A DNA stretch of 64,000 nucleotides from Patescibacteria group bacterium (GTDB lineage: Bacteria; Patescibacteriota; JABMPQ01; JAQVVF01). Position 1 is the stretch's first letter. Each line of letters opens with the position of its first letter. The DNA lies in NCBI GenBank assembly GCA_041662665.1, contig JBAZSC010000001.1, forward strand, positions 1,511 to 65,510, read 5' to 3'. Below are positions 8,029 to 62,763 of this stretch, in pieces. The position numbers and the translations under genes are program-made. The notes beneath the pieces were generated by a model that was not told the origin of the DNA, ran no database searches, and saw only the letters and a program-made list of their open reading frames with translations.

Positions 8029-8400
8029 TCAGCTCTCCGCCAGCGCATCCTTAAAATGCCTTAAACTTGCTCTTCTCGTTTTCATATTCAGCTCAATCGC
8101 CACAACATCAATTCTTATCGCATCACGAATATTATTTAGACTAATATAATTATAAATCGTCTTTGCCATCTTTTTTAGCTTAAAAAAATCAACCGCTTCT
8201 TGCGGTTGACCAAAATATAAATTAGTTCTTGTTTTAACTTCAACAAAGACAATTGTATTCTTATCTTTTGCAATAATATCAATCTCACCAAATCTAGAAT
8301 GATAATTTTTATCTAAAATAATATAATTTAGTTTTTTCAAATGATCACAAGCCAACTTTTCACCCAAATCACCAATTTTAAGATTAGTATTTGTCATCAA
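8029..8400 (-). CDS. YraN-family (UPF0102) endonuclease
   Basis: 123 aa; GE-x-A...GEIDIIAKD...VFVEVKTR motif pattern. Confidence 0.75.
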   Translation of the reverse strand: MMTNTNLKIGDLGEKLACDHLKKLNYIILDKNYHSRFGEIDIIAKDKNTIVFVEVKTRTNLYFGQPQEAVDFFKLKKMAKTIYNYISLNNIRDAIRIDVVAIELNMKTRRASLRHFKDALAES

Positions 8401-8422
8401 GTTACTAGTTACTAATTACAAG

Positions 8423-8983
8423 TTACTTTTTAAAAATTAAACCATAATGATATTCATCAGTCTTTATATCTTTAACAAATGAAAATCCAGCATTCTTGGC
8501 ATGTTTTAGCACAACATCATAAGCAATTCTCTCATTAACATTTGGTCCAACAGGAATTGCTTCTTTTCTCCAATCAACAACTAATAATTTTCCGCCTGGT
8601 TTGGTCATTCTATAGCTTTCCGCAAAAATCATGTCTGGTTTTTTTGATTGATAAAGATTCATAACAAGCATTACCAAATCAACGCTATCGTTTGAAATTC
8701 CAGTTGCATTTGGTACTTCAATATCTGCCCAAACAGGCTTTACATTTCTGGCACCATAAAAACTAATGTCTGATCTAATTCCAGACAAAACAGCTTTTTG
8801 CACATCAACAGCATAAACAATTCCAGAAGGTCCAACTAATTTTGATGCTGCAAATGTCATATATCCAGATCCGCAACCAAGATCAGCAACAATCATATTT
8901 TGGGCAATATCAGATTGCCTTAAAATATCTTTCGGATTCAAAAAACTTGGCGCTTTTAATGAAATTGGTTTTTGTTTTTGCAT
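8423..8983 (-). CDS. class I SAM-dependent methyltransferase
   Basis: 186 aa; VADLGCGSGYMT glycine-rich SAM-binding motif. Confidence 0.7.
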   Translation of the reverse strand: MQKQKPISLKAPSFLNPKDILRQSDIAQNMIVADLGCGSGYMTFAASKLVGPSGIVYAVDVQKAVLSGIRSDISFYGARNVKPVWADIEVPNATGISNDSVDLVMLVMNLYQSKKPDMIFAESYRMTKPGGKLLVVDWRKEAIPVGPNVNERIAYDVVLKHAKNAGFSFVKDIKTDEYHYGLIFKK

Positions 8984-15280: not shown

Positions 15281-15346
15281 GAATTTATAAGTAAATTAGT
15301 AATAAGTAACTAGTAACTAGAATACAGTTTTTCTAATTACCAGTTA

Positions 15347-16390
15347 CTAATTACTAGTTGCAAGCATTTTAATTTTGTCATATTCTTTCAAGATTTGCAA
15401 CCCCTTAATTTGTCGCATTGAACCAGTTTTCGCTGTCCTCAAAACTCTCAAAGCTTCTTCCAAATCTAAAAAGCTAATATCTTTAAATTTCTCTAATTTC
15501 AATCTCAAAATCGCTCTTTGCAAAGATTTATCAAGAGCTAAAAATTCATTTAATTTCAAAGTATTTTCATCTAAGCTTAGCTCTGCCAATTTTAGTTTTG
15601 CGGTCCTTTCAATATAATCAAAATCATCTTTCAAAGTCTTTGCACTCTGGCAAATTGTTGATCTTAAATTTTTGTTATATCCTTCTTCCAAAAATGGCAC
15701 CAATTCATGCCTAATTTTGTTTCTTAAATAAATATTTTGTGAATTTGTGGAATCATTTCGATATTCCAAATGGTTTTCTTTCAAATAAAGCAAAATATCT
15801 CGCTTATAACAATTTAATAATGGCCTGATGATATTATTTTGTTCAAATTTAATTCCGCTCAATCCTTTTAATCCAGATCCTCTCAAGAAAAACATCAAAA
15901 TTGTCTCTGCATCATCATCCTTATTATGAGCAACTGCAATCTTATCTGCCTTTTCTTTAGCCAAAATTTCATTAAAATAATCATATCTAATTTTCCGGCA
16001 TTTTGCTTCCAATCCCTTATCTTTTAAATCTAAATCTTTAACCTCTTTAACATAAATTGGCAAATTATATTGTTCAGCCAGTTTTCGTGCCAAAATCATA
16101 TCCAAAAAAGAATCTTTTCCTCTCAAATTATAATTTACGTGCGCTAATACCAAATCAAAATCAAGAATATTTTGGACTTTCCTGTCTGCCGTAGTTTCAG
16201 CGAAGGCAGATAATTCATTACTTTTGACTTTAGATTTTAGACTTTTAATCTTACACAAAATATCCAGCAAGCATACGGAGTCGGGTCCAGAAGACAAACC
16301 TAAAATAACCTTCTCGCGAGGCTTAATTAAATTATAATCTGAAATTGTTTTTAATACTAGATCTTGCATAAGTAAGCGGTAGTTTAGCAT
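15347..16390 (-). CDS. tilS: tRNA(Ile)-lysidine synthetase
   Basis: 347 aa; PP-loop GLSSGPDSVCLL; TilS-type C-terminal region. Confidence 0.85.
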   Translation of the reverse strand: MLNYRLLMQDLVLKTISDYNLIKPREKVILGLSSGPDSVCLLDILCKIKSLKSKVKSNELSAFAETTADRKVQNILDFDLVLAHVNYNLRGKDSFLDMILARKLAEQYNLPIYVKEVKDLDLKDKGLEAKCRKIRYDYFNEILAKEKADKIAVAHNKDDDAETILMFFLRGSGLKGLSGIKFEQNNIIRPLLNCYKRDILLYLKENHLEYRNDSTNSQNIYLRNKIRHELVPFLEEGYNKNLRSTICQSAKTLKDDFDYIERTAKLKLAELSLDENTLKLNEFLALDKSLQRAILRLKLEKFKDISFLDLEEALRVLRTAKTGSMRQIKGLQILKEYDKIKMLATSN

Positions 16391-16401
16391 TAATTAGTGA
16401 A

Positions 16402-16548
16402 GTAATCAAGGTTTTGTGTTTCGGACCGTCGGACCGTCAGAACGTCAGAGCTTCGGACCGTCAGAACTTCGGACCGTCAGAACGTCCTACGCTCCGACGA
16501 TCTGACGCTCCGACGTTCCCACGTTCCCACGTTCTGATGCTCTAAAAT
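16402..16548. repeat. long GC-rich imperfect palindrome built from words (cgtcagaacgtc / ggaccgtc | gacgctccgacg / ttcccacgttc)
   Basis: left arm words are the reverse complement of right arm words; family also at 17044-17152, 43321-43400, 43545-43600, 43755-43850, 43895-43950, 50340-50440. Confidence 0.6.
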
Positions 16549-16611
16549 ATTTGACAAAAAATTTATATTGTGCTAATTTAGTGCTGGCTGTAAAAAAGCA
16601 CAGGAGGGAGA

Positions 16612-17027: not shown

Positions 17028-17050
17028 CGTGATTTTTTTTATTTAGAGTA
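17028..17050 (+). terminator. rho-independent terminator
   Basis: cacgcccatgcgtg hairpin + tttttttt. Confidence 0.6.
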
Positions 17051-17152
17051 TCAGACCTTCAGACCGTCAGAGCTTCGGACCGTCGGACCGTCAGAACGTC
17101 AGAGCTTCGGACCGTCAGAACGTCCTACGCTCCGACGCTCCGACGCTCTAAA
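17044..17152. repeat. GC-rich word palindrome (same family as 16402-16548)
   Basis: cagaccgtcagagcttcggaccgtc...cgctccgacgctccgacgctc. Confidence 0.55.
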
Positions 17153-17162
17153 AACGAAAACC

Positions 17163-17195
17163 AGCGTTTTCACGCTGGCTCATAGTAATTTTTAA
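17163..17195 (-). terminator. rho-independent terminator for rpsA
   Basis: minus strand reads ccagcgtgaaaacgctgg followed by ttttcgttttt. Confidence 0.55.
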
Positions 17196-21446: not shown

Positions 21447-21926
21447 ATGCTCGAAAATCGAACTGAATCAGAAAGAAAACGAATTTTCTGGATTCTATTA
21501 ATTGGCACAGGTTTAATTATTTTTTTTATTTGGTTAATCCTTTTAATAAAAGGCTTTGTTCTTGATTCTGTAAAATTAGCAGAAACAAAAAAACAGGATG
21601 CAGTTCAACAAAATACTAATTCATTCGGCGATCAATTTAAAGAAGCCATTAATGGTTTTAAAAAACTTGATGTTCAAGGCAAAATATTAAATATTAAAGA
21701 TGGCATAAAGAATTTAAATATCAATGAAAATATCGAAAATAATAATTTGAACCAAAACGAAGAACAAGCTTTGAATTCAAATGAAAATGTTAATCAAGAA
21801 CAAGTCCAAGTTAACGAACAAGAAAAAACAGAAGAGCCAGTTAGTCAGGAAAATCCAGAAAACTTAAATCAAGAAGAAAATTTAAATACACCATCAATAC
21901 CTCGTTTGCCAGTTGAAAACGAGTAA
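21447..21926 (+). CDS. membrane-anchored low-complexity (N/Q/E-rich) protein
   Basis: 159 aa; single N-terminal TM then N/E/Q-rich repeats. Confidence 0.4.
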   Translation: MLENRTESERKRIFWILLIGTGLIIFFIWLILLIKGFVLDSVKLAETKKQDAVQQNTNSFGDQFKEAINGFKKLDVQGKILNIKDGIKNLNINENIENNNLNQNEEQALNSNENVNQEQVQVNEQEKTEEPVSQENPENLNQEENLNTPSIPRLPVENE

Positions 21927-21929
21927 TAA

Positions 21930-21990
21930 GTAACAAGTAACTTGTAACAAGTAAACGTTTTTACTAATTACTAGTTACTTATTACTAATT
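21930..21990. repeat. word-built inverted repeat (gtaacaagtaac / gtaactagtaac family)
   Basis: taagtaacaagtaacttgtaacaagtaaac...ttactaattactagttacttattac; family recurs at 15290-15360, 29140-29190, 48125-48160, 50500-50545, 60760-60825. Confidence 0.5.
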
Positions 21991-22008
21991 AACTAATTAC
22001 TTACACAT

Positions 22009-33251: not shown

Positions 33252-34997
33252 TCAGCGTGCAACCTGCAAGCTGTATCCATTCGGATCATCATGAAGACTG
33301 ACATCAAGTCCAGGAGTAGGACTTGCAACATCAGGCGTCAACAACATCCAGTTGCCAAGCGTGCTCGAGAAATTGAAGTAGACATATGCCATCGTTGTCG
33401 GCAACGGATAGGTCATCATCTTCAATGCTTCGTCATACTGACCATGCACGTAATCACGCAGATAGTATTCGTTGCTGACAGGATCGAAAGCATACTCTTC
33501 AGTCCAGAAATAAACTCCAGGCCAATTCACTGCTTCATCACCCATCAGATAGATGTTGGAAGCGTCAGCGAAGACATCCAGACCATGTGTCATCTGAGCG
33601 ATCACATGTTCGTCAGTCACACCATCGCAGTCGTTGTCGATTCCGTCAGGAAATTCGATCGCCTGCGGATGAATCTGATCGTTGTTGTCATCGCAATCAA
33701 CTGCATCCGGATAACTATCAGAATCAACATCGTCTGCATTGACGCATGCTTCTTCATCAGTCTCACCATCGCAGTCGTTGTCCAATGCATCGCAAGTTTC
33801 CGGAACCGGATTCATCGGCACAGCATTGCAATAGGTCTTGTTCGGCGAAAGCTGGTCCGGATTACAGATCATCTCGCCAAGAGTTGCGCATTCGCCAACC
33901 CCAACCATGCAAGGATCGCCAAGTCCAATGAAGTCTTCGTCAGTCTTGCCATCGCAGTTATTGTCAATGCCGTCGCAGATCTCCGGAGTTCCAGAGTTCA
34001 GAACAGCATTGCAGACCATCTGGCCATCAGCATTGCACATGAATGTTCCAACCGAAACGCAATTGCCATCGCCAACGAAGCATTCTGCACCCAAGCCAAT
34101 GAAATCATCGTCCACCAAACCATCGCAGTCATTGTCCTTGCCATCGCAGATCTCATCAGTTCCATCGATCACGGCAGCATTGCATTCCAGACCAGAGCCA
34201 TCCGCAGTGCAGATATACACGCCCTGGTTGAAACAAACGCCAACTCCGCGTTCACATGTCTGATTCAGATTCACGAAGTCCTCGTCAGTCGATCCATCGC
34301 AGTCATTGTCCTTGCCATCACAAGCTTCTGCAACTGGCGAAACCTCACCTTCACAATTCCAGTTGCCATTCGTGCAAGTGTTGATACCAGGATTGCATTC
34401 ACCTTCCGAAATCCCACAAGGCATCGTCATCTGATCAGTGACGCCATCGCAATCGTTGTCGACATTGTCACAGACTTCTTCAGAAGGCAAACCTTCAACA
34501 GCATCGCACTTCATCGTGTCCTTGCTTCCGCTGCAGATATAGAATCCAGCAGATTCACAAGCACCGATACCAACAAGGCAAGGCTGATTCAGCATCACGT
34601 AATCTTCATCAACTGCATCATCGCAATCGTTGTCCTTGTAATCGCAGAGCTCAAGAGCACCAGGATAGACATCGGAATTGCGAGGATCGCAGTCAACAGT
34701 GCAATCGTCATAGGAATCGCCATCGAAATCAGCATAGTCCACAATCTGATCGCAGTTGTTGTCAATCAAATCACCACAGATTTCTTCAGCTCCAGGCTTG
34801 ATCGACGAATTATTGTCATTGCAATCGCCTGTTTCAGGAGTGAATCCATCGCCATCCTGATCGTTTCCACAGTAATTGTAAACTTCATTCATCGGCTTTG
34901 AAATCGTGTTCAGATCCTGATTGTCATCATTGGTTGCATCGAAACATCCACAAACAGAAACCAACATCAACAATACACACAATCTCTGCTGTCTCAT
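33252..34997 (-). CDS. secreted Cys-rich repeat protein with >=9 C-D-x-x-D-N-D-C-D-G-x-x-D-E putative metal-binding repeats; visibly GC-rich (foreign-looking) gene
   Basis: 581 aa; signal peptide MRQQRLCVLLMLVSVCGC; repeats CDGKDNDCDGSTDED etc.; CAGGAGGGCGAG RBS; antisense ORF 33174..34901 judged spurious. Confidence 0.65.
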   Translation of the reverse strand: MRQQRLCVLLMLVSVCGCFDATNDDNQDLNTISKPMNEVYNYCGNDQDGDGFTPETGDCNDNNSSIKPGAEEICGDLIDNNCDQIVDYADFDGDSYDDCTVDCDPRNSDVYPGALELCDYKDNDCDDAVDEDYVMLNQPCLVGIGACESAGFYICSGSKDTMKCDAVEGLPSEEVCDNVDNDCDGVTDQMTMPCGISEGECNPGINTCTNGNWNCEGEVSPVAEACDGKDNDCDGSTDEDFVNLNQTCERGVGVCFNQGVYICTADGSGLECNAAVIDGTDEICDGKDNDCDGLVDDDFIGLGAECFVGDGNCVSVGTFMCNADGQMVCNAVLNSGTPEICDGIDNNCDGKTDEDFIGLGDPCMVGVGECATLGEMICNPDQLSPNKTYCNAVPMNPVPETCDALDNDCDGETDEEACVNADDVDSDSYPDAVDCDDNNDQIHPQAIEFPDGIDNDCDGVTDEHVIAQMTHGLDVFADASNIYLMGDEAVNWPGVYFWTEEYAFDPVSNEYYLRDYVHGQYDEALKMMTYPLPTTMAYVYFNFSSTLGNWMLLTPDVASPTPGLDVSLHDDPNGYSLQVAR

Positions 34998-35483
34998 CTT
35001 CTCGCCCTCCTGTTGTGGAGACCCGCAGGTCTCTCTGTTGTCGGACCCAATATTCCAATATATATACGTAGAAAGAGCAATACCAGAATATAATCTATTT
35101 TTTAGAATATGTCAAGCCTTTTGGCTAGAATTAGGACAAAAAAGCAAAATTTAGGAATAAATAATAAATTGCTTTTTCTAAGCCAAAATAACAGCAATTA
35201 AAACCTAAATTCAAAGATTGCTATATTTTGCTTATTTTAAGCCAAAATAACAATATTCGTAATTCGTATCATTTGCATTTATTCGTATATTTGTATTATA
35301 TTTAGGAAATACTATTGACAAAAATATAATAGTATGCTACTCTTAATAGCTGTGTTAAAAGCCTCAAAAATAAACAATAGTACCTAAAAACCTATTTTCG
35401 CCTCAAATTTGAGAGAAAGGAAGCATCAGATATTTAATATTAGTTATTCAGATCTTCTATCTTTTTCTCAATTTTGAGGCAAT

Positions 35484-35506
35484 TTCCTTCCAGTGCTGGA
35501 AGGACG
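35484..35506 (+). promoter_or_regulatory. perfect palindrome/hairpin tccttccagtgctggaagga upstream of small-peptide ORF
   Basis: ccttccag words recur in the 70-bp direct repeats at 35644-35713 and 36036-36105. Confidence 0.4.
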
Positions 35507-35521
35507 GTCAAGGAGGATTGA

Positions 35522-35608
35522 ATGGAGAACTTCGACATCGCGGTTGCTCTGGTACTCATTGCAGCGCTGTCCTTCGGGCTCGGCTACTGGCTTCGTGGAA
35601 GGCACTAG
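35522..35608 (+). CDS. small hydrophobic peptide (28 aa) MENFDIAVALVLIAALSFGLGYWLRGRH, type I toxin-like
   Basis: AAGGAGGATTG RBS 6 nt upstream; single TM helix + basic/aromatic C-terminus; GC-rich. Confidence 0.35.
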   Translation: MENFDIAVALVLIAALSFGLGYWLRGRH

Positions 35609-35643
35609 CCTTCCGCACTTTGCTACCCGCACCTTGCTACCTG

Positions 35644-35713
35644 CCGTATTCGATCTCTGATCGTCTACGGCCCTTCCAGAGTTTACAAATATCTTTTGTA
35701 GATTGTGGAAGGA
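35644..35713. repeat. 70-bp direct repeat, copy 1 (ccgtattcgatct...ggcccttccagagtttacaaat...ttgtagattgtggaagga)
   Basis: near-identical copy at 36036-36105; contains the ccttccaga...tggaagg hairpin. Confidence 0.65.
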
Positions 35714-35757
35714 TAGTTCACTACAGGAGATAGCTCCTGTCAAAAGAGGAGGACACA

Positions 35758-35988
35758 ATGTTGTCCGCAGCGTTGCTCGGGATCCTGGTGTGGGTGGCGA
35801 TCGTGGTCTTCTGCGGGATCATGGTACCCTGCGGGATGGCAATCGTCGATCGTAAGATCGACGACATCAAGCTCATCCCCGGGTTCACGATGGAGATGGC
35901 GAAGCGGACGTGGTTCGTCTTGCCCATCGTCATCGTGTGCAACATGATCTTCGTGGCTGCACTCACGTTCTACCAGACCGGTCTCTGA
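35758..35988 (+). CDS. small two-TM membrane protein (76 aa), GC-rich
   Basis: AAGAGGAGGACACA RBS; flanked on both sides by the 70-bp direct repeat. Confidence 0.45.
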   Translation: MLSAALLGILVWVAIVVFCGIMVPCGMAIVDRKIDDIKLIPGFTMEMAKRTWFVLPIVIVCNMIFVAALTFYQTGL

Positions 35989-36035
35989 TCTTCTCACGAT
36001 CTTCCTTTCGCTTCTTCACAGCTCTTTGCTACTAG

Positions 36036-36105
36036 CCGTATTCGATCTTCGATCGTTTTACGGCCCTTCCAGAGTTTACAAATCATTTTGTAGATTGTGG
36101 AAGGA
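36036..36105. repeat. 70-bp direct repeat, copy 2
   Basis: ccgtattcgatcttcgatcgttttacggcccttccagagtttacaaatcattttgtagattgtggaagga. Confidence 0.65.
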
Positions 36106-36416
36106 AAAAATAATTAACTTCAATGTTACAAAACATTATAAAAGCAAAGATTTATGATCTTTATACAAGATTCATAACATCTCCAATTGGTTTATATCTA
36201 GTTTTCAAAAAATAACAAACGTCCCCCATTGTCCGCCAAAGTCTCAAGACGAAGGCGGATAATTGGGGGATTTTTGTTTTCAATAAAATCTGTTAAAATC
36301 AAAGTAGTTATAAAGTCCTTAAAGTTATAAAGTTTATAAAGTCTACGACTTTCCGAACTTTATAACTTTAAAAACTTTACAAACTTTGTGAACTTCGTGA
36401 TTTAAAGATTTCTATA

Positions 36417-37505
36417 ATGAAAAAAAATAAAATAATAATTATAATAAGTGTTATTATATTGGCGATAATTCTGTCTCTTGTTTTTGTCAAATTCAAAACT
36501 GCCAAGCCTAATCCTCTGAAAAACTGGACTCTCAAACAAAAAGTCGGTCAATTGATGATAGTCAACTTCAATGGAACAGAACCAGATTATTATATTAACA
36601 AAATGATTTTGGAGCGAAATGTCGGCGGTGTGATTTTGATGGGAGCAAATATCAAAGACAATGATCAAATCAAAACTTTGACCAATGCTTTGCAATATAA
36701 TACGACTATAAATGAAAAGCAAATTCCTCTTTTTATTTCAATTGATCAAGAGGGAGGAATAGTTACGAGATTGCAAGATGTCGAACATACAGCAGAGAAA
36801 GATATTAAGACTGAAGAACAAGCAATAAAAGTTGCTAAAACAAGAGGAGAACAACTATTATCTTTGGGCATTAATATTAATCTAGCTCCTGTCTTAGATT
36901 TTTCAACTGACAAAAATTCATTTATTTATTCTCGAACTTTCGAAAATAATTTAGCAGAAACATCAAAATTAGCAGTTGCAACTGCTAAAGGTTATAACCA
37001 AGCTAAAATTATTTATGTTCCAAAACATTTTCCAGGTCATTTTAATTCTGTGATTGATTCACATCAAGAATTACCAATGATTTTAGAATCAGAAAAAGAA
37101 ATGTTAAATAATACAAAGCCATTTCAAGAAGTTATCAACAATCAAGACCCAAAAATCATCATGACCTCTCACACACTTTATCCAAAAATTGATCCAAAAT
37201 ATCCAGCTACATTATCCAAAAAAATATTAACTGATATTCTAAGGAAAAAATTAAAATATAATGGACTAATCATGACTGACGATTTAAGCATGAAAGCTTT
37301 AACAAAAAAGTACACTCTTGAAGAAATAGCAATCAAAGCTTTGCAAGCTTCCAATGATATTCTTCTCTTCATTGGCGAGCCAGAAGAACAAGTCAACGTT
37401 TACAATGCCATTATTAAAGCAGTTGAAGACAAAAAAATATCAGAAAAAGAGATAGATGAAAAAGTTATCAAGATTCTAGAACTCAAAAATCAGATGCAAG
37501 AATAA
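36417..37505 (+). CDS. glycoside hydrolase family 3 beta-N-acetylhexosaminidase (NagZ-like), membrane anchored
   Basis: 362 aa; GH3 N-domain pattern ...KHFPGHF...D...MTSH.. and catalytic Asp region LIMTDDLSM. Confidence 0.75.
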   Translation: MKKNKIIIIISVIILAIILSLVFVKFKTAKPNPLKNWTLKQKVGQLMIVNFNGTEPDYYINKMILERNVGGVILMGANIKDNDQIKTLTNALQYNTTINEKQIPLFISIDQEGGIVTRLQDVEHTAEKDIKTEEQAIKVAKTRGEQLLSLGININLAPVLDFSTDKNSFIYSRTFENNLAETSKLAVATAKGYNQAKIIYVPKHFPGHFNSVIDSHQELPMILESEKEMLNNTKPFQEVINNQDPKIIMTSHTLYPKIDPKYPATLSKKILTDILRKKLKYNGLIMTDDLSMKALTKKYTLEEIAIKALQASNDILLFIGEPEEQVNVYNAIIKAVEDKKISEKEIDEKVIKILELKNQMQE

Positions 37506-43296: not shown

Positions 43297-43318
43297 ACCG
43301 CAATCGCGGTTTTTTTAT
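43297..43318 (+). terminator. rho-independent terminator
   Basis: accgcaatcgcggt hairpin + tttttttatttt. Confidence 0.6.
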
Positions 43319-43320
43319 TT

Positions 43321-43400
43321 TCAGAGCGTCAGAACGTCAGACCGTAGGACCGTCAGACCGTCTGAGCTTCGGAACGTCGGAACGTCAGATCGTCAGACAT
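43321..43400. repeat. GC-rich word repeat (cgtcagaacgtcagaccgtaggaccgtcagaccgtc...)
   Basis: same family as 16402-16548; complementary arms at 43545-43600, 43755-43850 and 43895-43950. Confidence 0.55.
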
Positions 43401-43732
43401 TAGAACTTAAAATTTATAAGTTTAAAAGTTTAGATTTTGGATTGCTTAGCCTCGAAATATTAAAGATTAAAGCTGTCGGAACTCTCCGACTAATTTTCTA
43501 TAGTCCAGCCCTCAAACAAGATACTCCGAAATCCGACGTTCTCACATTCTGATTTCCTACGCTCCGAAGCTCCTACGCTCTGTTCTTATCCTGTGCATAA
43601 CTATAGGATAACCTGTGTTTTAGTGCCTTTTAGCTGTTGGCAATTTAATTGAATAAGTGTTACAATTATGTCGGAAGTGTCGGACATTTCCGACAGTAGC
43701 TTAAATAAGGCAAAAAGTCTGTTTCTGCTCAA

Positions 43733-43752
43733 AATGTTCCACGTGGAACATT
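43733..43752. promoter_or_regulatory. perfect 20-bp palindrome AATGTTCCACGTGGAACATT (operator-like site 1)
   Basis: read directly; a 24-bp perfect version recurs at 44771-44794 on the other side of the TrmB-family gene. Confidence 0.6.
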
Positions 43753-43951
43753 CGTGGAGCGTCGGAACGTCAGAACGTAAGAGCGTCAGATCGTCAGTTC
43801 GTCGGACGGTCGGACCGTCGGACCGTCGGAAAATCCTAACTCAGGATTATAATCCAATGCCTAGAAATTCCACGTCCAACGCTCAAACATTCATACGATC
43901 TTCCGTTCTGACGTTCCGACGCTCCGACGCTCCGACGCTCATCACACAAAT

Positions 43952-45141: not shown

Positions 45142-45224
45142 AATCAACTTTTAACAATTAACAGTTAACATTTAACAATCGCAAAAAGTGTTAATTGTTA
45201 AAAGTTAATGGTTAAATGTTAAAA

Positions 45225-47954: not shown

Positions 47955-48165
47955 AAAAAGTTAAATAAGTTAGACTAGTTAGACTAGTTAAATAAAAAAG
48001 GCGAGCAATTTTGCTCGTCTTTTCGTTTATGTTTGCTAGAATCGGCTAAGGTTGGAGTGAGATTTAATGAAAAATCTTTTTAAAGATCAATCATTTAAAC
48101 CTTAGCCAGTTTTAGAAAACGAGTTTACCAGTAACTAGTAATTAGTAACTAGTAACTCGAATTAC

Positions 48166-48208
48166 GATTCTCACAATCTTGAAATTTCTTTCAAGACTCT
48201 GAGAATCC
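48166..48208. repeat. degenerate TIR element (gattctcacaatcttgaaa...tttcaagactctgagaatc)
   Basis: diverged member of the gatcctcacaattttggaa...ttccaaagctgtgaggatc family. Confidence 0.45.
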
Positions 48209-48556: not shown

Positions 48557-48655
48557 CTGCCTCTCCGTTGCCTGTTCTCACAGGCTCAAGTGGCTGCACT
48601 TGCAGCATCATGATGACATTTTATCAGCATGATGCTACAAGTCAGATGTTTTAAA

Positions 48656-48719
48656 GATCCTCACAATTTTGGAAACTAGTAGAGAGTAATACACTCATGT
48701 TCCAAAGCTGTGGGGATCC
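48656..48719. repeat. MITE-like element with terminal inverted repeats gatcctcacaattttggaa / ttccaaagctgtggggatc
   Basis: 64 bp; longer family members at 48920-49016, 49674-49790, 50026-50100. Confidence 0.65.
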
Positions 48720-48809
48720 TGCAAAACTTACGTCTTACAGGAAAGGTACAATCGCCGAGAGAGGATCTCGACTTCCCGTTGCCCTATTCGTAGAATCAGG
48801 CATTGGGCA
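48720..48809. repeat. 90-bp repeat 'B' (tgcaaaacttacgtcttacaggaaaggtacaatcgccgagagaggatctcgacttcccgttgccctattcgtagaatcaggcattgggca), copy 1
   Basis: identical copy at 49791-49880; each abuts the 3' end of a minus-strand small-peptide ORF. Confidence 0.7.
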
Positions 48810-48817
48810 ATCAATGT

Positions 48818-48901
48818 TCAGGCGAGTAAACCGTACAAGCACGCAGAAGCAATGATGAGGGCGAAAAGAAATACACCATCAAGCACCAGATTCTTGATCA
48901 T
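48818..48901 (-). CDS. small hydrophobic peptide (27 aa) MIKNLVLDGVFLFALIIASACLYGLLA, type I toxin-like
   Basis: CAGGAGGAACGACAA RBS; single TM helix; stop immediately adjacent to repeat B. Confidence 0.35.
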   Translation of the reverse strand: MIKNLVLDGVFLFALIIASACLYGLLA

Positions 48902-48919
48902 TTGTCGTTCCTCCTGAAA

Positions 48920-49016
48920 GATCCTCACAATTTTGGAACAAGAGATTTCAGAAGGGGAAGGGATTTCCTTCCGACCTCCGACATCCGATTTCCGATTTCC
49001 AAAGCTGTGAGAATCC
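48920..49016. repeat. MITE-like TIR element (long form with internal ccgacctccgacatccgatttccgatttcc word block)
   Basis: same termini as 48656-48719. Confidence 0.65.
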
Positions 49017-49273
49017 GCCAGAAAAAATAATTGAATATTTTACTAGCGGAGAAAGTACCAACAATAATAATGAGCACAGGTGGTCCATTCTTCCGAGTCC
49101 TCCGCCTTCTGCTACAACTCAAGCTCTGCTTGGTCGTCGTATGCAGATTAAGGCTGAACCTTGAGGACGAACAAAGCCTTACAGCTTTGCCCTTCTCGGA
49201 CCGCGGGTTTTGCAGGGAACCCATGGTTAAACCCTCCAGCAAGTCTTAACGCTCTTGCTGGTAGCGTGACACA

Positions 49274-49534
49274 CTACTTTTCGTCCATCTTGAACGAAAA
49301 GTCGTGGACTCCACCAAGCTTATCCTGCACCCTGACGTACAGAGTGCCGTAAGTGGGGATCCGACCCGCCGTGCACGCGTATGTGCGGCTCTCGACGTTT
49401 CCCGAGGCGAACAGACTCGCCTCGCGGATGATGTTCCTTCCCTCCTCCGCCAGGAACCAGGTCCTGGCGATCTCGCCCGTCCAACCGGGCATTGGTCCAC
49501 CGACCAACGCCAAACACTCATCCATCCTCGTCAT
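49274..49534 (-). CDS. hypothetical protein (86 aa), GC-rich cargo gene
   Basis: GAAGGAGAG RBS + ATG; imperfect 45-bp palindrome aatcaccatcataatgattattgagtaatcaacataatggtgatt upstream; overlapping alternative-frame ORFs judged spurious. Confidence 0.45.
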   Translation of the reverse strand: MTRMDECLALVGGPMPGWTGEIARTWFLAEEGRNIIREASLFASGNVESRTYACTAGRIPTYGTLYVRVQDKLGGVHDFSFKMDEK

Positions 49535-49673
49535 AAAACTCTCCTTCGCCCTTTTTTAGGGCGGCTTGCCTCCAGATTGACACCGAGTGAAATCTCGGTA
49601 TGGTCACTCTGTCGGCTCTTTTCAATCACCATCATAATGATTATTGAGTAATCAACATAATGGTGATTAAAAA

Positions 49674-49790
49674 ATATTTTAAAGATCCTCACAATTTTGG
49701 AAACTAGTAGAACAAGGGATTTCAGAAGGGGAAGGGATTTCCTTCCGACTTCCGACATCCGATTTCCGATTTCCAAAGCTGTGGGGATCC
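49674..49790. repeat. MITE-like TIR element (long form)
   Basis: gatcctcacaattttggaaactagtagaacaagggatttcagaaggggaagggatttccttccgacttccgacatccgatttccgatttccaaagctgtggggatcc. Confidence 0.65.
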
Positions 49791-49880
49791 TGCAAAACTT
49801 ACGTCTTACAGGAAAGGTACAATCGCCGAGAGAGGATCTCGACTTCCCGTTGCCCTATTCGTAGAATCAGGCATTGGGCA
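49791..49880. repeat. 90-bp repeat 'B', copy 2 (identical to 48720-48809)
   Basis: read directly. Confidence 0.7.
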
Positions 49881-49889
49881 GGAGTTAGC

Positions 49890-50009
49890 TCAGTGATTGA
49901 TGAAATACCACATGAGGTAGGAGACGACCATCCCAACGCCTACGCCGGCGAGGAATGTGACTGCGAGTTTTGCCTTCAAGGGCAACAGATCCCATTCGCT
50001 CTGTGGCAT
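49890..50009 (-). CDS. small hydrophobic peptide (39 aa) MPQSEWDLLPLKAKLAVTFLAGVGVGMVVSYLMWYFINH, type I toxin-like
   Basis: TAGGAGGGCGTC RBS; one TM helix with aromatic C-terminus; stop abuts repeat B. Confidence 0.35.
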   Translation of the reverse strand: MPQSEWDLLPLKAKLAVTFLAGVGVGMVVSYLMWYFINH

Positions 50010-50025
50010 GACGCCCTCCTAGTTT

Positions 50026-50100
50026 GAATCCTCACAATTTTGGAATAGTTTCCGACTTCCGAAGCTCTAAAGCTCCGACGTTCCAAAGCTGTGAGGATCC
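50026..50100. repeat. MITE-like TIR element
   Basis: gaatcctcacaattttggaatagtttccgacttccgaagctctaaagctccgacgttccaaagctgtgaggatcc. Confidence 0.6.
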
Positions 50101-50339: not shown

Positions 50340-50440
50340 CAGATATCAGAGTTCAACGCTCTGACGTTCAGACGCTCCGAAGTCCCGACGTTCCGAAGCT
50401 CCCACGCTCCCACGCTCCCACGTCCAACCTCCCAGGTTTT
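50340..50440. repeat. GC-rich word repeat (gttcaacgctctgacgttcagacgctccgaagtcccgacgttccgaagctcccacgctcccacgctcccacg)
   Basis: same word family as 16402-16548. Confidence 0.5.
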
Positions 50441-50804
50441 GTCCCAAAAAAATAGGACAAGCCAATATTTGAAAGAGTGATCAAATACTGACTTGTCCGA
50501 ATTTAGCTTCTTCAAGTTACTAGTTACTAGTAACTAGTAACTAGCTCGCTTGGATCTCACTCCAATATTTTGCTTTTTGCCACATTTCGTGACAATAAGC
50601 TATATTCACTTTTAAATAACAATTTTTATTGTATAATCTATTATACGCTAGTATTGTTATTTTGTCAAGGGTATTTCCAAAATATCAATTGTTTTTGGCT
50701 TATTTAAAGCAAATTAAAAATTAGATTTCTTATATATTTTACATAATAAATTATATACAATATATGCTTGATTTATTTTTGAAATGTATTAAAATAAGAA
50801 CTGA

Positions 50805-50893: not shown

Positions 50894-51577
50894 ATGAAGT
50901 CTCTAAGCCTTCGGCAAGAAATAATTACTTACCGAAAAAGTGGCTATTCCTACGGGATGATTAGCAAAAAATTTGGTTTATCAAAAAGTACCCTTAGTAC
51001 CTGGCTTAAAGAGATTCCATATACACCTAATAAAGAAGTTATTGATAGAATTGGAAATGCTCGTATGCAATCTGCCACATCGAAGCACAATCAGATGATG
51101 GCTGATATACAAAAAATGAGAAAAGTTGCAAAGGATGAATTAGGAAAATTATCAAAAAGAGATTTATGGATGCTTGGAATCGGTCTTTACATAGGTGAAG
51201 GCAATAAAGCATATGAACAAATAAGATTAACCAATTCCGATCCAAAAATCATACTATTAGCATTAGAATGGTTTAGAACGTTTTGCAATCTTAAAGAAGA
51301 AAATTTTAGAATTAGAATACATATTTATCCAGACATAGTTCCTGATGAAGCACTTAAATATTGGTCAAAAATAACAGGTCTCGCTGAAAAAAATTTTGAT
51401 AAAATTCAAATTGATAGACGTACTAATAAAGTAGCCAAAAAAAGAAGAACGCTTCCATTCGGCACAATTCAAATAGTTATAAAAAGTAATGGTAAGAAAG
51501 AATTCGGAAAAAGTCTTCATCGAAGAATCATGGGTTGGATTGATAATTCTTTAGAACAAATAAATGTGCGGGTGTAA
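50894..51577 (+). CDS. HTH-domain protein with LAGLIDADG-like motif, paralog 2; 3' end embedded in tRNA-Gly
   Basis: 227 aa; HTH GYSYGMISKKFGLSKSTLSTWLK; LGIGLYIGEGNK motif; C-terminal ...QINVRV* = aatgtgcgggtgtaa overlapping the tRNA-Gly(TCC) acceptor stem; homologous over the full length to 27459..28130. Confidence 0.5.
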   Translation: MKSLSLRQEIITYRKSGYSYGMISKKFGLSKSTLSTWLKEIPYTPNKEVIDRIGNARMQSATSKHNQMMADIQKMRKVAKDELGKLSKRDLWMLGIGLYIGEGNKAYEQIRLTNSDPKIILLALEWFRTFCNLKEENFRIRIHIYPDIVPDEALKYWSKITGLAEKNFDKIQIDRRTNKVAKKRRTLPFGTIQIVIKSNGKKEFGKSLHRRIMGWIDNSLEQINVRV

Positions 51578-59688: not shown

Positions 59689-60756
59689 ATGTCAATTTTC
59701 ACTCCAAAAAAACAAGCCTTTGGCATCGAAATCAGCGATGCTTCAATAAAAGTTCTCCAATTAAAAAAGGGAGGCAAGTTTTATAAACTCGTAGGTTACA
59801 ATGTTTTAAAAATTCCTCAAGGAATAGTCGTTTCTGGTGAAATAAAAGATTCTAAACTCCTAGCTTCATATATTCAAAAAGCAACAAATAGTGCAAAACC
59901 AAAAAAAATTTTTATTTCAAATGTAGTTTGTTCTCTTCCAGAAAACAAAACCTTTGTTAGAATACTAGAAATTCCTCAAATGAGCAAAGAAGAATTAAGC
60001 GAAGGAATAAAATGGCAAGCAGAGCAGTATATTCCATTGCCAATTGATACAGTATATCTTGATTGGCAAATTATCGAAACAATAGATAGCAGACAAAGGA
60101 TATTAGTTGCTGCAGCTCCAAAAAAAATTGTTGATAGTTATATCAATGTTTTGAAGATCGCTAGATTAAAACCACAGGTTTTAGATCTTGAAGAAGCAGC
60201 TGAAGCAAGAGCTTTGATTCCAGAAAATCAAAAAGAGGCGAGTCTCATTGTTGATATTGGTGCCACAAAAACAGTTTTCTTTGTTCAAGATCGAAAAATT
60301 GTTCCATTCGCTTCAAATACTCAAGAAGTTTGCGGTAATAAGTTCACCGAAAATATCAGCAAAGCTTTAAAAATAAATATCGAAAATGCCGAAGCAAAAA
60401 AAGCAGCTTGTTGCAGTCCAGATCTTTCAAATGAAGAAAAAACGTTATTGCAATCAATTTATCCATTGTTTGACTCACTTGCAACTCAGATTATTAAAAT
60501 AATTGGCTATTACCAAAATCATTTCAAATCCGCAAATCCAATTAACAACATAATTTTATGCGGTGGAGGAGCCAATATCTCCGGAATAGTTCCTCATCTT
60601 ACTTTGAAATTAAAAATGAAAATCTCAATAGCGAATCCACTAACTAATTTACCAGTCAAAAAAAGCTTGCCAATCAATAATCAAGACTTGCTTAGCTTAA
60701 CAACAGTTATTGGTCTTGGAATAAGAGGCGCAGAGATCGTGAAGTATAGTAAATAG
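59689..60756 (+). CDS. pilM: type IV pilus assembly protein PilM (actin-like ATPase fold)
   Basis: 355 aa; N-terminal GIEISDASIKVLQL and VDIGATKT actin-fold phosphate motifs. Confidence 0.8.
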   Translation: MSIFTPKKQAFGIEISDASIKVLQLKKGGKFYKLVGYNVLKIPQGIVVSGEIKDSKLLASYIQKATNSAKPKKIFISNVVCSLPENKTFVRILEIPQMSKEELSEGIKWQAEQYIPLPIDTVYLDWQIIETIDSRQRILVAAAPKKIVDSYINVLKIARLKPQVLDLEEAAEARALIPENQKEASLIVDIGATKTVFFVQDRKIVPFASNTQEVCGNKFTENISKALKINIENAEAKKAACCSPDLSNEEKTLLQSIYPLFDSLATQIIKIIGYYQNHFKSANPINNIILCGGGANISGIVPHLTLKLKMKISIANPLTNLPVKKSLPINNQDLLSLTTVIGLGIRGAEIVKYSK

Positions 60757-60836
60757 TAATTAGTAACTAGTAACTAGACTTTCGTTTCGTCAGTTTCTAG
60801 TTACTGATTACTAATTACAAGTTACAGCAAAACACA

Positions 60837-62602: not shown

Positions 62603-62763
62603 CTGTCTTATTAAGTATGAAAAAAGACTTATTTAAGATAATGCCTATTTTAAGCCAAAATCACAAAAAACAGTTAATATCTGGTGTATAAAAAAAGATC
62701 TTTTTTATGACAAACTAGTTATTTTGCCTTAAAAAAGCCTAAATAATCCTTCAAAAAAAGGCT

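What the first reader, a model, noticed from the sequence alone, without database searches (positions are those of the whole stretch)
35480..36110. Second GC-rich micro-cassette: 28-aa and 76-aa hydrophobic peptides, the latter bracketed by a 70-bp direct repeat
Two very GC-rich small ORFs lie here: a 28-aa single-TM peptide ending YWLRGRH and a 76-aa two-TM protein. Both have perfect RBSs.

The 76-aa ORF is flanked by near-identical 70-bp direct repeats (35644-35713 and 36036-36105). These contain the ccttccaga...tggaagg hairpin. A perfect palindrome tccttccagtgctggaagga sits upstream of the 28-aa ORF.

The layout is the same as in the 48-50 kb island: a small membrane peptide followed by a conserved structured repeat. 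This suggests a family of peptide + structured-RNA cassettes, either type I TA-like or recombination-site-bearing cassettes.
Basis: partly seen in the sequence, partly recalled or inferred. Interest (0 to 1): 0.65.

Follow-up and report, generated by a model that had tools for sequence, protein, structure and literature searches.

The report
Foreign small-gene cassettes with hairpin repeats
A 620-bp GC-rich insert carrying two tiny membrane-protein genes, each followed by a conserved two-hairpin repeat, occupies a promoter-driven slot that in related ultra-small bacteria is empty or holds other foreign genes, so it resembles an integron cassette array but has neither integron sites nor an integrase.

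Summary
A 28-aa ORF (35522-35608) and a 76-aa ORF (35758-35988) have strong ribosome-binding sites. A structured direct repeat of about 83 nt (35631-35713 and 36023-36105) brackets the 76-aa ORF, and a short palindrome (35485-35504) lies upstream.

Both ORFs are orphans. Their third-codon-position GC (GC3) is 0.72 and 0.88, against a host median of 0.23, so they look like real, foreign coding DNA.

The host is a Patescibacteria MAG. The insert lies in the 5' UTR of a conserved, unannotated 30-aa microprotein gene upstream of a GH3 (nagZ-like) gene.

Four related genomes share the promoter, microprotein, terminator and GH3. Between them the slot is empty (L024), holds a 19-aa remnant (L017), one lipoprotein gene (L018), or two secreted-protein genes (L021). 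Each complete gene is GC-rich and is followed by a two-hairpin module (SL1+SL2).

SL2 shows compensatory changes in 10 of 18 pairs. The window's two repeat copies differ only at unpaired positions (p=1.6e-6). A model built without it finds an SL2-type hairpin in the 48-50 kb island.

There are no canonical attC core sites, no recombinase in the 64 kb, no Rfam match and no antisense promoter.

Best reading: an integron-like but non-integron cassette slot whose hairpins act mainly in the sense transcript. Type I toxin-antitoxin is not supported.

The parts
35315..35343 (+). Conserved promoter: TTGACA, 17 nt, TACTCT, with TGC directly before the -10 element
   Evidence: The same TTGACA-17-TAnnnT arrangement occurs at the same place in L017, L018, L021 and L024. 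The -10 reads TAAGAT, TAATAT, TATAAT and TATAAT there. The window's own -10 is weak and was not flagged by the consensus scan.
35400..35480 (+). Leader hairpin of about 81 nt with a 19-bp stem. Its composition is AT-rich like the host.
   Evidence: The stem is conserved in L017, L018 and L021. It has one invariant G.U pair, and two A-U pairs become G.U in L021. The sense strand folds at -31.7 kcal/mol against -26.8 for the antisense. It is absent from L024.
35485..35504 (+). Palindrome TCCTTCCAG-TG-CTGGAAGGA. It shares the outer stem of SL2, is probably a vestigial SL2, and marks the left edge of the GC-rich block.
   Evidence: Only a weak match to the SL2 model.
35522..35608 (+). 28-aa single-TM ORF (cassette 1), SD AAGGAGG at 35510-35516
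   Evidence: GC by codon position is 0.62/0.38/0.72, against host GC3 of 0.23. There is a hydrophobic window at residues 3-24. It is too short for the homology tools. No Pfam, NCBIfam or PADLOC hit.
35609..35713 (+). 3' module 1: tandem CCGCACYTTGCTAC motif (35609-35642), SL1 (35643-35671) and SL2 (35672-35712)
   Evidence: Fold z = -7.2. SL2 model scores 57-62 bits. The motif CGCACCTTCCGCACTT recurs after the cassette stop codons in L021, and as TCGCACCTTCCGG in L018.
35723..35740 (+). Small hairpin ACAGGAG-ATAG-CTCCTGT between SL2 and the SD of the 76-aa ORF
35758..35988 (+). 76-aa two-TM ORF (cassette 2), SD GAGGAGG at 35746-35752. Annotated at NCBI as hypothetical protein MFA6295775.1.
   Evidence: GC by codon position is 0.48/0.36/0.88. 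phmmer against 1.84 billion representatives found no homologue: only itself and one spurious repetitive hit. Its cluster has one member. The Logan gene caller did not call it.
35989..36105 (+). 3' module 2: degenerate motif, SL1 (36035-36064) and SL2 (36065-36104). This is the right edge of the GC-rich block.
   Evidence: SL2 model scores 64-67 bits.
36123..36215 (+). Conserved AT-rich microprotein ORF (30 aa, MLQNIIKAKIYDLYTRFITSPIGLYLVFKK). This is the native gene of the transcription unit.
   Evidence: Present in all five genomes, including the empty one. M1, I5, K7, Y14, T19, S20, P21, Y25 and K29 are invariant. GC3 is 0.16.
36221..36277 (+). Intrinsic terminator: long GC-rich stem followed by TTTTTGTTTT
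   Evidence: Fold -38.6 kcal/mol, z = -9.0. A counterpart is present in L017, L018, L021 and L024.
36417..37505 (+). GH3 (nagZ-like) gene, used as the synteny anchor
   Evidence: Pfam PF00933, E = 2e-69. Homologues at 83%, 83%, 66% and 58% identity gave loci L017, L018, L024 and L021.
48166..48207 (-). SL2-type hairpin at the 3' end of the 48-50 kb array
   Evidence: Found by model R2, which was built without it (25.4 bits, E = 2.9e-5). Sense strand -25.0 kcal/mol against -17.5 for antisense.
48655..50100 (-). Four further related hairpins (48655-48719, 48919-49010, 49683-49790, 50026-50100) separating four GC3-rich orphan ORFs on the minus strand
   Evidence: ORF GC3 values are 0.83, 0.52, 0.78 and 0.70. 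The word-index searches of the two 86-aa ORFs found only themselves.

Best explanation
The region is one filled state of a variable gene slot in a small clade of Patescibacteria.

**Native unit.** It consists of a sigma-70-type promoter, a short 5' UTR, a conserved 30-35-aa microprotein gene and a terminator, all just upstream of a GH3 gene.

**What fills the slot.** In some genomes the 5' UTR carries an 81-nt leader hairpin followed by one or two horizontally acquired, GC3-rich genes for envelope proteins. These encode TM peptides, lipoproteins or secreted proteins. Each gene has its own strong SD. Each ends in a roughly 100-nt 3' module made of a CCGCAC-type motif plus two adjacent hairpins, SL1 and SL2.

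**Shown.**
- The slot varies between genomes.
- The cassette codon usage is foreign to the host.
- The module is structurally conserved with compensatory changes.
- Cassette boundaries and the GC-rich block end exactly at hairpin ends.

**Inferred.**
- The whole array is transcribed from the conserved promoter as one sense RNA.
- The hairpins act in that RNA as intercistronic structures. Candidate roles are processing or 3'-end protection of the kind done by RNase III sites or REP stabilisers. The CCUUCC motif after the stop codon may also pair with the next GGAGG SD, giving translational coupling.
- The repeated modules are the DNA homology through which cassettes are added or lost. This would happen by Campbell-type integration of a circular ORF-plus-module, or by unequal crossing-over. 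Whole-allele replacement between the conserved flanks is a further route.

The peptides are small envelope proteins of unknown role.
For: **Slot variation**

| Locus | GH3 identity | Content of the slot |
|---|---|---|
| L024 | 66% | promoter directly followed by microprotein; no leader hairpin, no GC-rich ORF, no SL2 |
| L017 | 83% | leader, then a 19-aa lipoprotein-signal remnant fused to SL2 |
| L018, L019 | 83% | leader, a 124-aa lipoprotein, motif + SL1 + SL2 |
| L021 | 58% | leader, then two ORFs of 120 and 129 aa, each followed by motif + SL1 + SL2 |
| window | - | two ORFs of 28 and 76 aa |

**Foreign codon usage**
- Cassette GC3 is 0.61-0.88. The flanking GH3 genes are 0.18-0.36 and the host median is 0.23.
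- The three-base periodicity supports real coding.

**Structure under selection**
- Six SL2 sequences give 18 pairs, 90.7% paired. Ten pairs show changes on both sides, and 0 of 500 shuffles reach this.
- Sliding the partner columns drops pairing to 32-55%.
- L021a, which was not in the training set, scores 46 bits.
- The window's two copies differ at 11 of 29 unpaired positions and 0 of 56 paired positions, Fisher p = 1.6e-6.

**Sense-strand preference**
- F1 and F2 fold at -23 kcal/mol on the sense strand against -14 on the antisense.
- The 48-kb hairpin folds at -25 against -17.5.
- The leader hairpins and three further hairpins of the 48-50 kb island are 4-6 kcal/mol better on the sense strand.
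- No hairpin is better on the antisense by more than 2 kcal/mol.
- G.U pairs occur in the leader stem.

**Other points**
- The predicted fold of 35609-35757 pairs CUUCC, just after the 28-aa stop, with the GGAGG SD of the 76-aa ORF.
- The unit ends in a strong terminator.
- SL2 itself has no U tail.
Against: - There are no expression data.
- There is no direct evidence of RNA cleavage.
- Strand asymmetry is absent in the L017, L018 and L021 hairpins.
- The CCUUCC:GGAGG pairing is only 5 bp and is not conserved in L021.
- The source of the GC-rich genes is unknown. No homologue was found for any window cassette ORF, and no relative of the L018 and L021 cassettes in viral contigs.
- Only five genomes could be compared.
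- Strongly GC-rich cassettes in four separate AT-rich lineages imply rapid turnover. Homologous recombination alone explains this less easily than a dedicated capture mechanism would.
- The rest of the 645-kb genome could not be searched for a recombinase.
Confidence: 0.5

Rival explanations
1. The two-hairpin module is a single-stranded-DNA recombination site of a so far unknown, non-IntI cassette-capture system. The promoter plus leader hairpin would be the expression platform. It would work like an integron: circular ORF-plus-site cassettes inserted and excised site-specifically.
For: - The layout matches an integron. A single upstream promoter drives co-oriented promoterless ORFs, each with its own SD and each followed by an imperfect hairpin site of variable length.
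- Sites are homogeneous within a genome and lineage-specific between genomes.
- Cassettes are orphans with foreign composition.
- Cassette number varies among relatives.
- Sequence similarity between units stops exactly at the 3' end of SL2.
- Highly GC-rich cassettes in four AT-rich lineages suggest frequent capture.
- JGI contigs of this organism break around the second repeat, at about 35962 and 36153.
Against: - No RYYYAAC...GTTRRRY core-site pair lies in either island on either strand.
- No tyrosine, serine or HUH recombinase domain was found in any ORF of 150 aa or more in the 64-kb window or in the L001 and L017 annotations.
- Pairing favours the coding strand through G.U pairs. Integrons use the bottom strand.
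- The L017 remnant arose by an imprecise deletion from inside an ORF to the foot of SL2, not by site-precise excision.
- The contig breaks are also what any repeat longer than the assembler's k-mer would cause.
Confidence: 0.27
2. A native operon of fast-evolving small envelope proteins. The GC-richness and the repeats would result from local duplication and unusual selection, such as selection for mRNA stability. No horizontal transfer or cassette mobility would be involved.
For: - The repeats within a genome are near-identical, which fits local duplication.
- The first cassettes of L018 and L021 share a GCGAHAP lipobox region, which could reflect common descent.
- SD-led internal genes also occur elsewhere in this genome.
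Against: - GC3 of 0.7-0.9 against 0.23 is far outside anything else in the window, including genes with strong SDs.
- Apart from the short lipobox match between L018 and L021, ORF content is unrelated between genomes whose flanking GH3 genes are 58-83% identical.
- One genome has nothing in the slot.
Confidence: 0.12
3. Type I toxin-antitoxin modules: small hydrophobic toxin peptides whose structured mRNAs are controlled by antisense RNAs.
For: - The 28-aa peptide and the 27- and 39-aa peptides of the other island are single-TM peptides of toxin-like size with strong SDs in highly structured RNA.
Against: - No promoter-like site lies on the antisense strand within 35480-36110.
- No peptide is conserved.
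- The slot holds 120-129-aa lipoproteins or secreted proteins in relatives.
- The hairpin repeat follows every cassette, whatever its product.
- No PADLOC, Pfam or NCBIfam hit.
Confidence: 0.05
4. Assembly chimera: GC-rich reads from another organism were joined into an AT-rich contig.
For: - The composition switches sharply at both ends of the block.
- JGI contigs break near the repeat.
Against: - The same junctions occur in the 645-kb MAG contig, in a Logan assembly of SRR18595301, and in JGI contig L022, which spans the left junction and the first repeat.
- The same architecture with other cassettes occurs in four further assemblies from other samples.
Confidence: 0.01

Closest known systems
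Integron cassette arrays, in particular CALIN (clusters of attC sites lacking an integron-integrase; Cury et al. 2016, PMC4889954)
   Same: - One upstream promoter drives the array.
- The ORFs are co-oriented, promoterless and mostly orphans.
- Each ORF is followed by an imperfect hairpin site with conserved stems and a variable loop.
- Sites are homogeneous within a genome.
- Cassettes are compositionally foreign.
- Cassette number varies between strains.
- No integrase is nearby, as in CALIN.
   Different: - There are no RYYYAAC/GTTRRRY core sites.
- The module is two hairpins plus an upstream motif.
- Pairing favours the coding strand.
- The array sits in the 5' UTR of a microprotein gene.
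- The host has a very small genome. [quoted passage not shown]
Intercistronic RNA hairpins that process or stabilise polycistronic mRNA, such as the phage T7 early-region RNase III sites and the REP stabilisers of E. coli operons (own knowledge)
   Same: - The stems are 17-20 bp with an internal mismatch and lie between cistrons.
- There is no U tail.
- G.U pairs occur on the sense strand.
- The structure is conserved through compensatory change.
   Different: - Cleavage or stabilisation was not tested here.
- REP elements are dispersed in hundreds of copies. These hairpins occur only inside the two arrays of the window.
Phage morons (own knowledge)
   Same: - Small added genes whose composition differs from their surroundings.
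- They often encode membrane proteins or lipoproteins.
- They end in a hairpin.
   Different: - There is no prophage context.
- The cassettes have no promoter or terminator of their own.
- No relatives were found in viral contigs.
Type I toxin-antitoxin loci such as hok/sok, ldr, ibs/sib and aapA/isoA (own knowledge)
   Same: - Small hydrophobic peptides encoded in highly structured mRNA.
- Units are sometimes tandemly repeated.
   Different: - No antisense promoter.
- No conserved peptide.
- The same slot carries lipoprotein genes in relatives.
Variable surface-lipoprotein expression sites of Mycoplasma, such as vsa and vsp (own knowledge)
   Same: - An AT-rich minimal genome.
- One expression site with exchangeable lipoprotein genes that share a signal-peptide and lipobox region. 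L018 and L021 share GCGAHAP.
   Different: - No silent gene copies, inversion sites or recombinase were seen.
- The cassettes are GC-rich and mutually unrelated.

Membership tests
Integron / CALIN | attC sites with inverted core sites R'' (RYYYAAC) and R' (GTTRRRY) | tested here: not met
   A regex scan of both strands of the window found no such pair with at least 6 of 7 complementary bases in 35.3-36.3 kb or 48-50.7 kb. The only hit in the window is an AT-rich one at 45170-45217.
Integron / CALIN | A match to the attC covariance model used by IntegronFinder | not testable with these tools
   That model is not available here and Rfam contains no attC family. Rfam gave no relevant hit.
Integron / CALIN | An integron-integrase (IntI) nearby. 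This is needed for a complete integron and is absent by definition in CALIN. | tested here: not met
   No recombinase domain in any ORF of 150 aa or more in the window or among the called genes of L001 and L017.
Integron / CALIN | At least two sites within 4 kb on one strand, separating co-oriented promoterless ORFs | tested here: met
   Two full sites and one vestigial site lie within 620 bp here, and five lie within 2 kb in the 48-50 kb island. All are co-oriented with the ORFs.
Integron / CALIN | The bottom strand is the recombinogenic folded form, with extrahelical bases and an unpaired central spacer | tested here: not met
   Where the strands differ, the coding (top) strand folds better by 4-9 kcal/mol. 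The only irregularity is a 1x1 G/G mismatch, which becomes a normal pair in L021.
Type I toxin-antitoxin | A hydrophobic toxin peptide smaller than about 60 aa | tested here: inconclusive
   The 28-aa peptide fits. The 76-aa ORF and the 120-129-aa cassette products in relatives do not.
Type I toxin-antitoxin | An antisense or overlapping sRNA gene with its own promoter | tested here: not met
   No minus-strand promoter-like site lies within 35480-36110. This is a consensus scan only, without RNA data.
Intrinsic terminator | A GC-rich hairpin followed by a U tract | tested here: not met
   SL2 is followed by ATAGTTC and by AAAAAATAA. The terminator scan flags neither copy. The real terminator is at 36221-36277.
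Dispersed intergenic repeats (REP/BIME, Correia-type MITEs) | Many copies scattered in intergenic regions of the genome | tested here: not met
   The covariance models find copies only inside the arrays, across the 64-kb window and about 270 kb of fetched loci. The whole genome was not searchable.
IS200/IS605-type elements and their PATE derivatives | Subterminal hairpins together with a TnpA (Y1) or TnpB gene, or many hairpin-only copies | tested here: not met
   No transposase domain in the window, and no dispersed copies.
Any Rfam family | A hit at or above the family's gathering score | tested here: not met
   Only tRNAs reach gathering score in the window. In 35000-36500 only sub-threshold miRNA-like hits to generic long hairpins appear.

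The most novel reading that the evidence does not exclude
Patescibacteria may have an integrase-independent, or unknown-enzyme, gene-cassette capture system. A roughly 100-nt module (motif plus two hairpins, not attC) would be the recombination site. A promoter with an 81-nt leader hairpin would be the expression platform. The system would continually sample GC-rich foreign genes for envelope proteins, possibly derived from the host bacterium. It would be a functional analogue of the integron that arose independently in ultra-small symbiotic bacteria.
Probability: 0.22. Interest if true: 0.85.

Novelty: new variant of a known kind. Interest (0 to 1): 0.6.

Why it matters
- Candidate Phyla Radiation (CPR) bacteria have tiny genomes and are thought to depend on host cells. 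How they acquire and display new surface proteins is largely unknown.
- This locus is a defined, promoter-driven slot. Closely related genomes carry different compositionally foreign genes in it for membrane, lipo- or secreted proteins. These genes are punctuated by a hairpin module under clear structural selection.
- If the module mediates capture, this would be a second, independent solution to the problem integrons solve, in a lineage where integrons are not expected.
- If it acts only in RNA, it is still a new conserved intercistronic RNA element. It is also a convenient marker for horizontally acquired genes in these genomes.
- Both readings can be tested with existing metagenome reads and metatranscriptomes.

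Tried and rejected
**Protein homology**
- phmmer of the 76-aa ORF against 1.84 billion representatives found only itself.
- Word-index searches of the two 86-aa ORFs of the other island found only themselves.
- Pfam, NCBIfam and PADLOC gave nothing for any cassette ORF. A PHROGs scan failed on a coordinate error and was not repeated.
- AlphaFold2 on one 86-aa ORF gave pLDDT 54, which is unusable, so no fold search was run.

**DNA pattern scans of public collections**
- The SL2 pattern in viral contigs gave 1 chance hit inside a CDS.
- A generalised SL2 pattern gave 1 hit in viral contigs and 12 in genome contigs. None of the 13 shows the two-stem hairpin with an outer stem, and the number is about that expected by chance.
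- The leader 20-mer in metagenome contigs returned only this organism's own contig plus one chance hit.
- The leader 20-mer and the pattern for the 48-50 kb island's hairpin type gave nothing in viral contigs.
- The CGCACCTTCCGCACTT motif in viral contigs gave 15 hits at chance level, none with an SL2.
- tblastn-confirmed scans of viral contigs for the L018 and L021 cassette proteins found nothing.

**Other checks**
- More distant GH3 homologues (46-51% identity) have lost synteny and carry no SL2.
- A look-up of one cassette protein (P0003) and a look-up meant to extend the contig to the left added nothing.
- A diversity-generating retroelement was considered and dropped. The differences between the repeat copies are not adenine-specific and no reverse transcriptase is present.
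- A terminator role for SL2 was dropped because it has no U tract.
- An alternative pairing of the leader's 3' arm with 35361-35370 was dropped because it is not conserved in L017 or L018.
- A literature search for integrons or cassettes in Patescibacteria/CPR found nothing relevant.
Full report
**1. Checking the observation**

The window has about 33% GC, with a few GC-rich blocks. One block runs from 35485 to 36105. It contains these features:
- A 28-aa ORF at 35522-35608. Its SD is AAGGAGG, 5 nt before the ATG.
- A 76-aa ORF at 35758-35988. Its SD is GAGGAGG, 5 nt before the ATG.
- A direct repeat on both sides of the 76-aa ORF.

It spans 35631-35713 versus 36023-36105, with small indels.

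Each copy folds into two adjacent hairpins:
- SL1 is GCCGTA..CGATC..GATCG..TACGGC.
- SL2 is CCTTCCA-G-AGTTTACAAA..TTTGTAGATT-G-TGGAAGG.

The plus-strand RNA energies are -38.5 and -37.0 kcal/mol, with z-scores of -7.2 and -8.3.

The palindrome at 35485-35504 has 9-nt arms around a 2-nt centre. It shares the outer stem of SL2 and looks like an SL2 that has lost its inner stem. The GC-rich block starts at this palindrome and ends at the last base of the second SL2.

The sequence is reproduced in independent assemblies: Logan SRR18595301 at 99.99% over 12 kb, and JGI 3300014208 at 100%. It is therefore not a chimera.

**2. Are the ORFs genes?**

They have no homologues:
- phmmer of the 76-aa protein against 1.84 billion representatives found only itself, plus one spurious hit to a repetitive 3015-aa protein.
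- Its cluster has one member, annotated as a hypothetical protein of a "Patescibacteria group bacterium" MAG on a 645-kb contig.
- No Pfam, NCBIfam or PADLOC family matches either ORF.

Codon-position composition nevertheless argues for real coding sequence:

| Sequence | GC at codon positions 1/2/3 |
|---|---|
| 76-aa ORF | 0.48 / 0.36 / 0.88 |
| 28-aa ORF | 0.62 / 0.38 / 0.72 |
| 31 long host ORFs | median GC3 0.23 |

The four small ORFs of the 48-50 kb island behave the same way in three cases (GC3 0.83, 0.78, 0.70) and less strongly in the fourth (0.52). They too lack any detected relative.

These are therefore coding sequences whose codon usage is foreign to this genome. The products are a single-TM peptide and a two-TM protein.

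**3. Context from related genomes**

This was the informative step. The gene downstream is a GH3 (nagZ-like) hydrolase. Its homologues at 83%, 83%, 66% and 58% identity led to syntenic loci L017, L018 (also L019 and L020), L024 and L021.

All five genomes share these elements:
- A promoter of the form TTGACA-17 nt-TAnnnT.
- An AT-rich microprotein ORF of 30-35 aa (window 36123-36215), with M1, I5, K7, Y14, T19, S20, P21, Y25 and K29 invariant.
- A strong terminator (window 36221-36277).
- The GH3 gene.

Between the promoter and the microprotein the genomes differ:

| Locus | Content between promoter and microprotein |
|---|---|
| L024 | About 50 nt of UTR and nothing else |
| L017 | An 80-nt leader hairpin, then a 19-aa ORF (MRYGIIGILFVCGSSRINN) that looks like a lipoprotein signal peptide fused by deletion to SL2 |
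| L018 | The leader, a 124-aa lipoprotein gene, then TCGCACCTTCCGG + SL1 + SL2 |
| L021 | The leader, then two genes (a 120-aa lipoprotein and a 129-aa secreted protein), each followed by CGCACCTTCCGCACTT + SL1 + SL2 |
| window | The leader (35400-35480), the vestigial SL2, and the 28-aa and 76-aa genes, each followed by motif + SL1 + SL2 |

In every genome the inserted genes are GC3-rich: 0.61 in L018 and 0.80 and 0.69 in L021. The neighbouring GH3 genes have GC3 of 0.18-0.36.

The first cassettes of L018 and L021 share only the lipobox region GCGAHAP. Apart from that short match, the cassette proteins of different genomes show no evident similarity to one another.

The ORF-plus-repeat units do delimit presence/absence and content variation among relatives.

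**4. The hairpin module is under structural selection**

- An alignment of six SL2 sequences (window x2, L017, L018, L021b and the 48-kb copy) gives 18 pairs with 90.7% of cells paired.
- Ten pairs show changes on both sides, and no shuffle in 500 reaches this.
- Pairing falls to 32-55% when the partner columns are slid.
- A covariance model recovers the sixth site, L021a, which it was not trained on, at 46 bits.
- SL1 has a completely different sequence in each lineage. It is nevertheless always a GC-rich hairpin abutting SL2.
- Within the window, the two module copies differ at 11 of 29 unpaired positions and at none of 56 paired positions, Fisher p = 1.6e-6.

**5. Link to the 48-50 kb island**

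- A model built only from the GH3-locus hairpins finds 48168-48205 on the minus strand at 25.4 bits, E = 2.9e-5. It finds nothing else convincing in 64 kb.
- Four more hairpins in that island share the CAG...AUUGUG foot and the same architecture, with longer loops. They lie at 48655-48719, 48919-49010, 49683-49790 and 50026-50100.
- They separate four minus-strand ORFs.

**6. RNA or DNA?**

- The leader stem has an invariant G.U pair, and two A-U pairs become G.U in L021.
- In the window, SL2, the 48-kb hairpin, three of the four further hairpins of the 48-50 kb island and both leaders tested fold 4-9 kcal/mol better on the ORF-sense strand.
- No hairpin favours the antisense strand by more than 2 kcal/mol. 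The L017, L018 and L021 SL2s are neutral.
- SL2 has no U tail and is not flagged as a terminator.
- The predicted fold of 35609-35757 pairs the CUUCC that directly follows the 28-aa stop codon with the GGAGG SD of the 76-aa ORF. SL1, SL2 and a third small hairpin are enclosed by that pairing.
- That arrangement would couple translation of the second ORF to the first. However, it is only 5 bp and is not conserved in L021, so I treat it as a hypothesis.

Taken together, the hairpins most likely act in the sense transcript. A role as top-strand single-stranded DNA is not excluded.

**7. Comparison with known systems**

*Integrons.* The layout is that of an integron cassette array without an integrase, a CALIN in the terms of PMC4889954. 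Several defining features are not met:
- No RYYYAAC/GTTRRRY core pair is present.
- The preferred strand is the coding one.
- No recombinase or transposase domain occurs in any ORF of 150 aa or more in the window or in the annotated relatives.

I therefore do not file it as an integron or CALIN.

*Other families.*
- Rfam has nothing relevant.
- A type I toxin-antitoxin reading fails. There is no antisense promoter, no conserved peptide, and relatives carry lipoprotein cassettes.
- Dispersed REP or MITE families are excluded, because copies occur only inside the arrays.
- A phage origin finds no support.

**8. Most likely mechanism**

*Shown:*
- A conserved promoter-driven slot with variable, compositionally foreign cassettes.
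- A conserved 3' module with compensatory evolution.
- Cassette and composition boundaries that fall at hairpin ends.

*Inferred:*
- One sense transcript runs from the promoter to the terminator at 36277.
- The hairpins serve as intercistronic RNA structures, for processing, 3'-end protection or translational insulation.
- The repeated modules supply the homology by which ORF-plus-module units are added or lost. This would be by Campbell-type integration or unequal crossing-over. Whole alleles may also be swapped between the conserved flanks.

The main rival is a dedicated hairpin-specific recombination system. Strongly GC-rich cassettes in four separate AT-rich lineages imply fast turnover, and this keeps that rival alive at roughly one chance in four.

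The L017 remnant arose by an imprecise deletion, from inside the ORF to the foot of SL2, with GGC microhomology. This shows that at least some changes at the locus are not site-specific.

**9. Limits**

- Only five genomes were available.
- The rest of the 645-kb genome could not be read.
- There are no expression data.

**Verdict**

Cassettes with structured repeats: yes. Type I toxin-antitoxin: no. Recombination sites: unproven.
- The feature is a new variant of a cassette-array theme in an unexpected host.
- Interest is 0.6.

Noticed in passing
window 36123-36215 (+): An unannotated 30-aa microprotein gene (MLQNIIKAKIYDLYTRFITSPIGLYLVFKK). It is conserved in five related genomes with an invariant TSP motif. 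It has its own promoter and terminator and always lies just upstream of the GH3 gene.
   Followed up: yes
window 16391-16560, 17029-17180, 43307-43406, 43740-43950, 50344-50433: GC-rich tandem arrays of 8-nt units (GTCAGAAC, GTCGGACC and similar), paired with arrays of complementary-like units (CGCTCCGA and similar). They form long intergenic hairpins and flank some moderately GC-rich genes.
   Followed up: no
window 8394-8427, 15291-15364, 21925-21995, 48130-48170, 50509-50542, 60748-60826: AT-rich inverted repeats built from AGTTACT/AGTAACT-type units lie between genes. They may be this genome's usual bidirectional terminator or spacer hairpins.
   Followed up: no
window 36306-36382; L017 about 9930-10000: A hairpin with 36-nt arms made of AGTTATAAAGT-like units lies directly upstream of the GH3 start codon. 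A similar structure is present in the 83%-identity relative.
   Followed up: partly
window 33252-34997 (-): A 581-aa Cys/Asp-rich protein with eight MopE-type putative metal-binding repeats (Pfam E = 4e-53). Its GC3 is 0.49 against a host median of 0.23. It is absent from this position in L017, L018 and L021, so it may be another acquired gene next to the slot.
   Followed up: partly
window 35176-35191, 35233-35248 (+), 50692-50707 (-), 62646-62661 (+); also L017, L018, L021, L024: A motif resembling TTATTTAAGCCAAAA recurs 60-140 nt upstream of the promoters of both cassette arrays and at one other place. There are 7 matches to the degenerate pattern against 0.9 expected. It may be an operator or UP-like element.
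   Followed up: partly
window 50668-50640 (-) and 50498-50455 (-): A perfect 12/12 sigma-70 consensus promoter on the minus strand is followed about 150 nt later by a terminator-like hairpin. Both lie upstream of the 48-50 kb array. This could be a short leader RNA or an attenuator controlling that array.
   Followed up: no
window 48700-48809 and 49771-49880: A 110-nt repeat that is 100% identical follows the two small TM-peptide ORFs of the 48-50 kb island. That island reads as two tandem super-units: hairpin, TM peptide, repeat, hairpin, then an 86-aa ORF.
   Followed up: partly
window about 35962 and about 36153 (ends of JGI contigs L022 and L002): The JGI assembly of the same population breaks on either side of the second repeat copy. 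This could be plain repeat-induced fragmentation, or it could reflect heterogeneity in cassette number.
   Followed up: no
window 50894-51577 (+): A 227-aa protein with a weak N-terminal HTH match to transposase-type HTH domains (E about 3e-5, below the Pfam cut-off). It lies between tRNA-Pro and tRNA-Gly, immediately beside the 48-50 kb array.
   Followed up: no
L017 9686-9745: A 19-aa ORF whose stop codon lies in the SL2 loop. It appears to be the signal-peptide remnant of a deleted lipoprotein cassette, with GGC microhomology at the deletion junction.
   Followed up: partly
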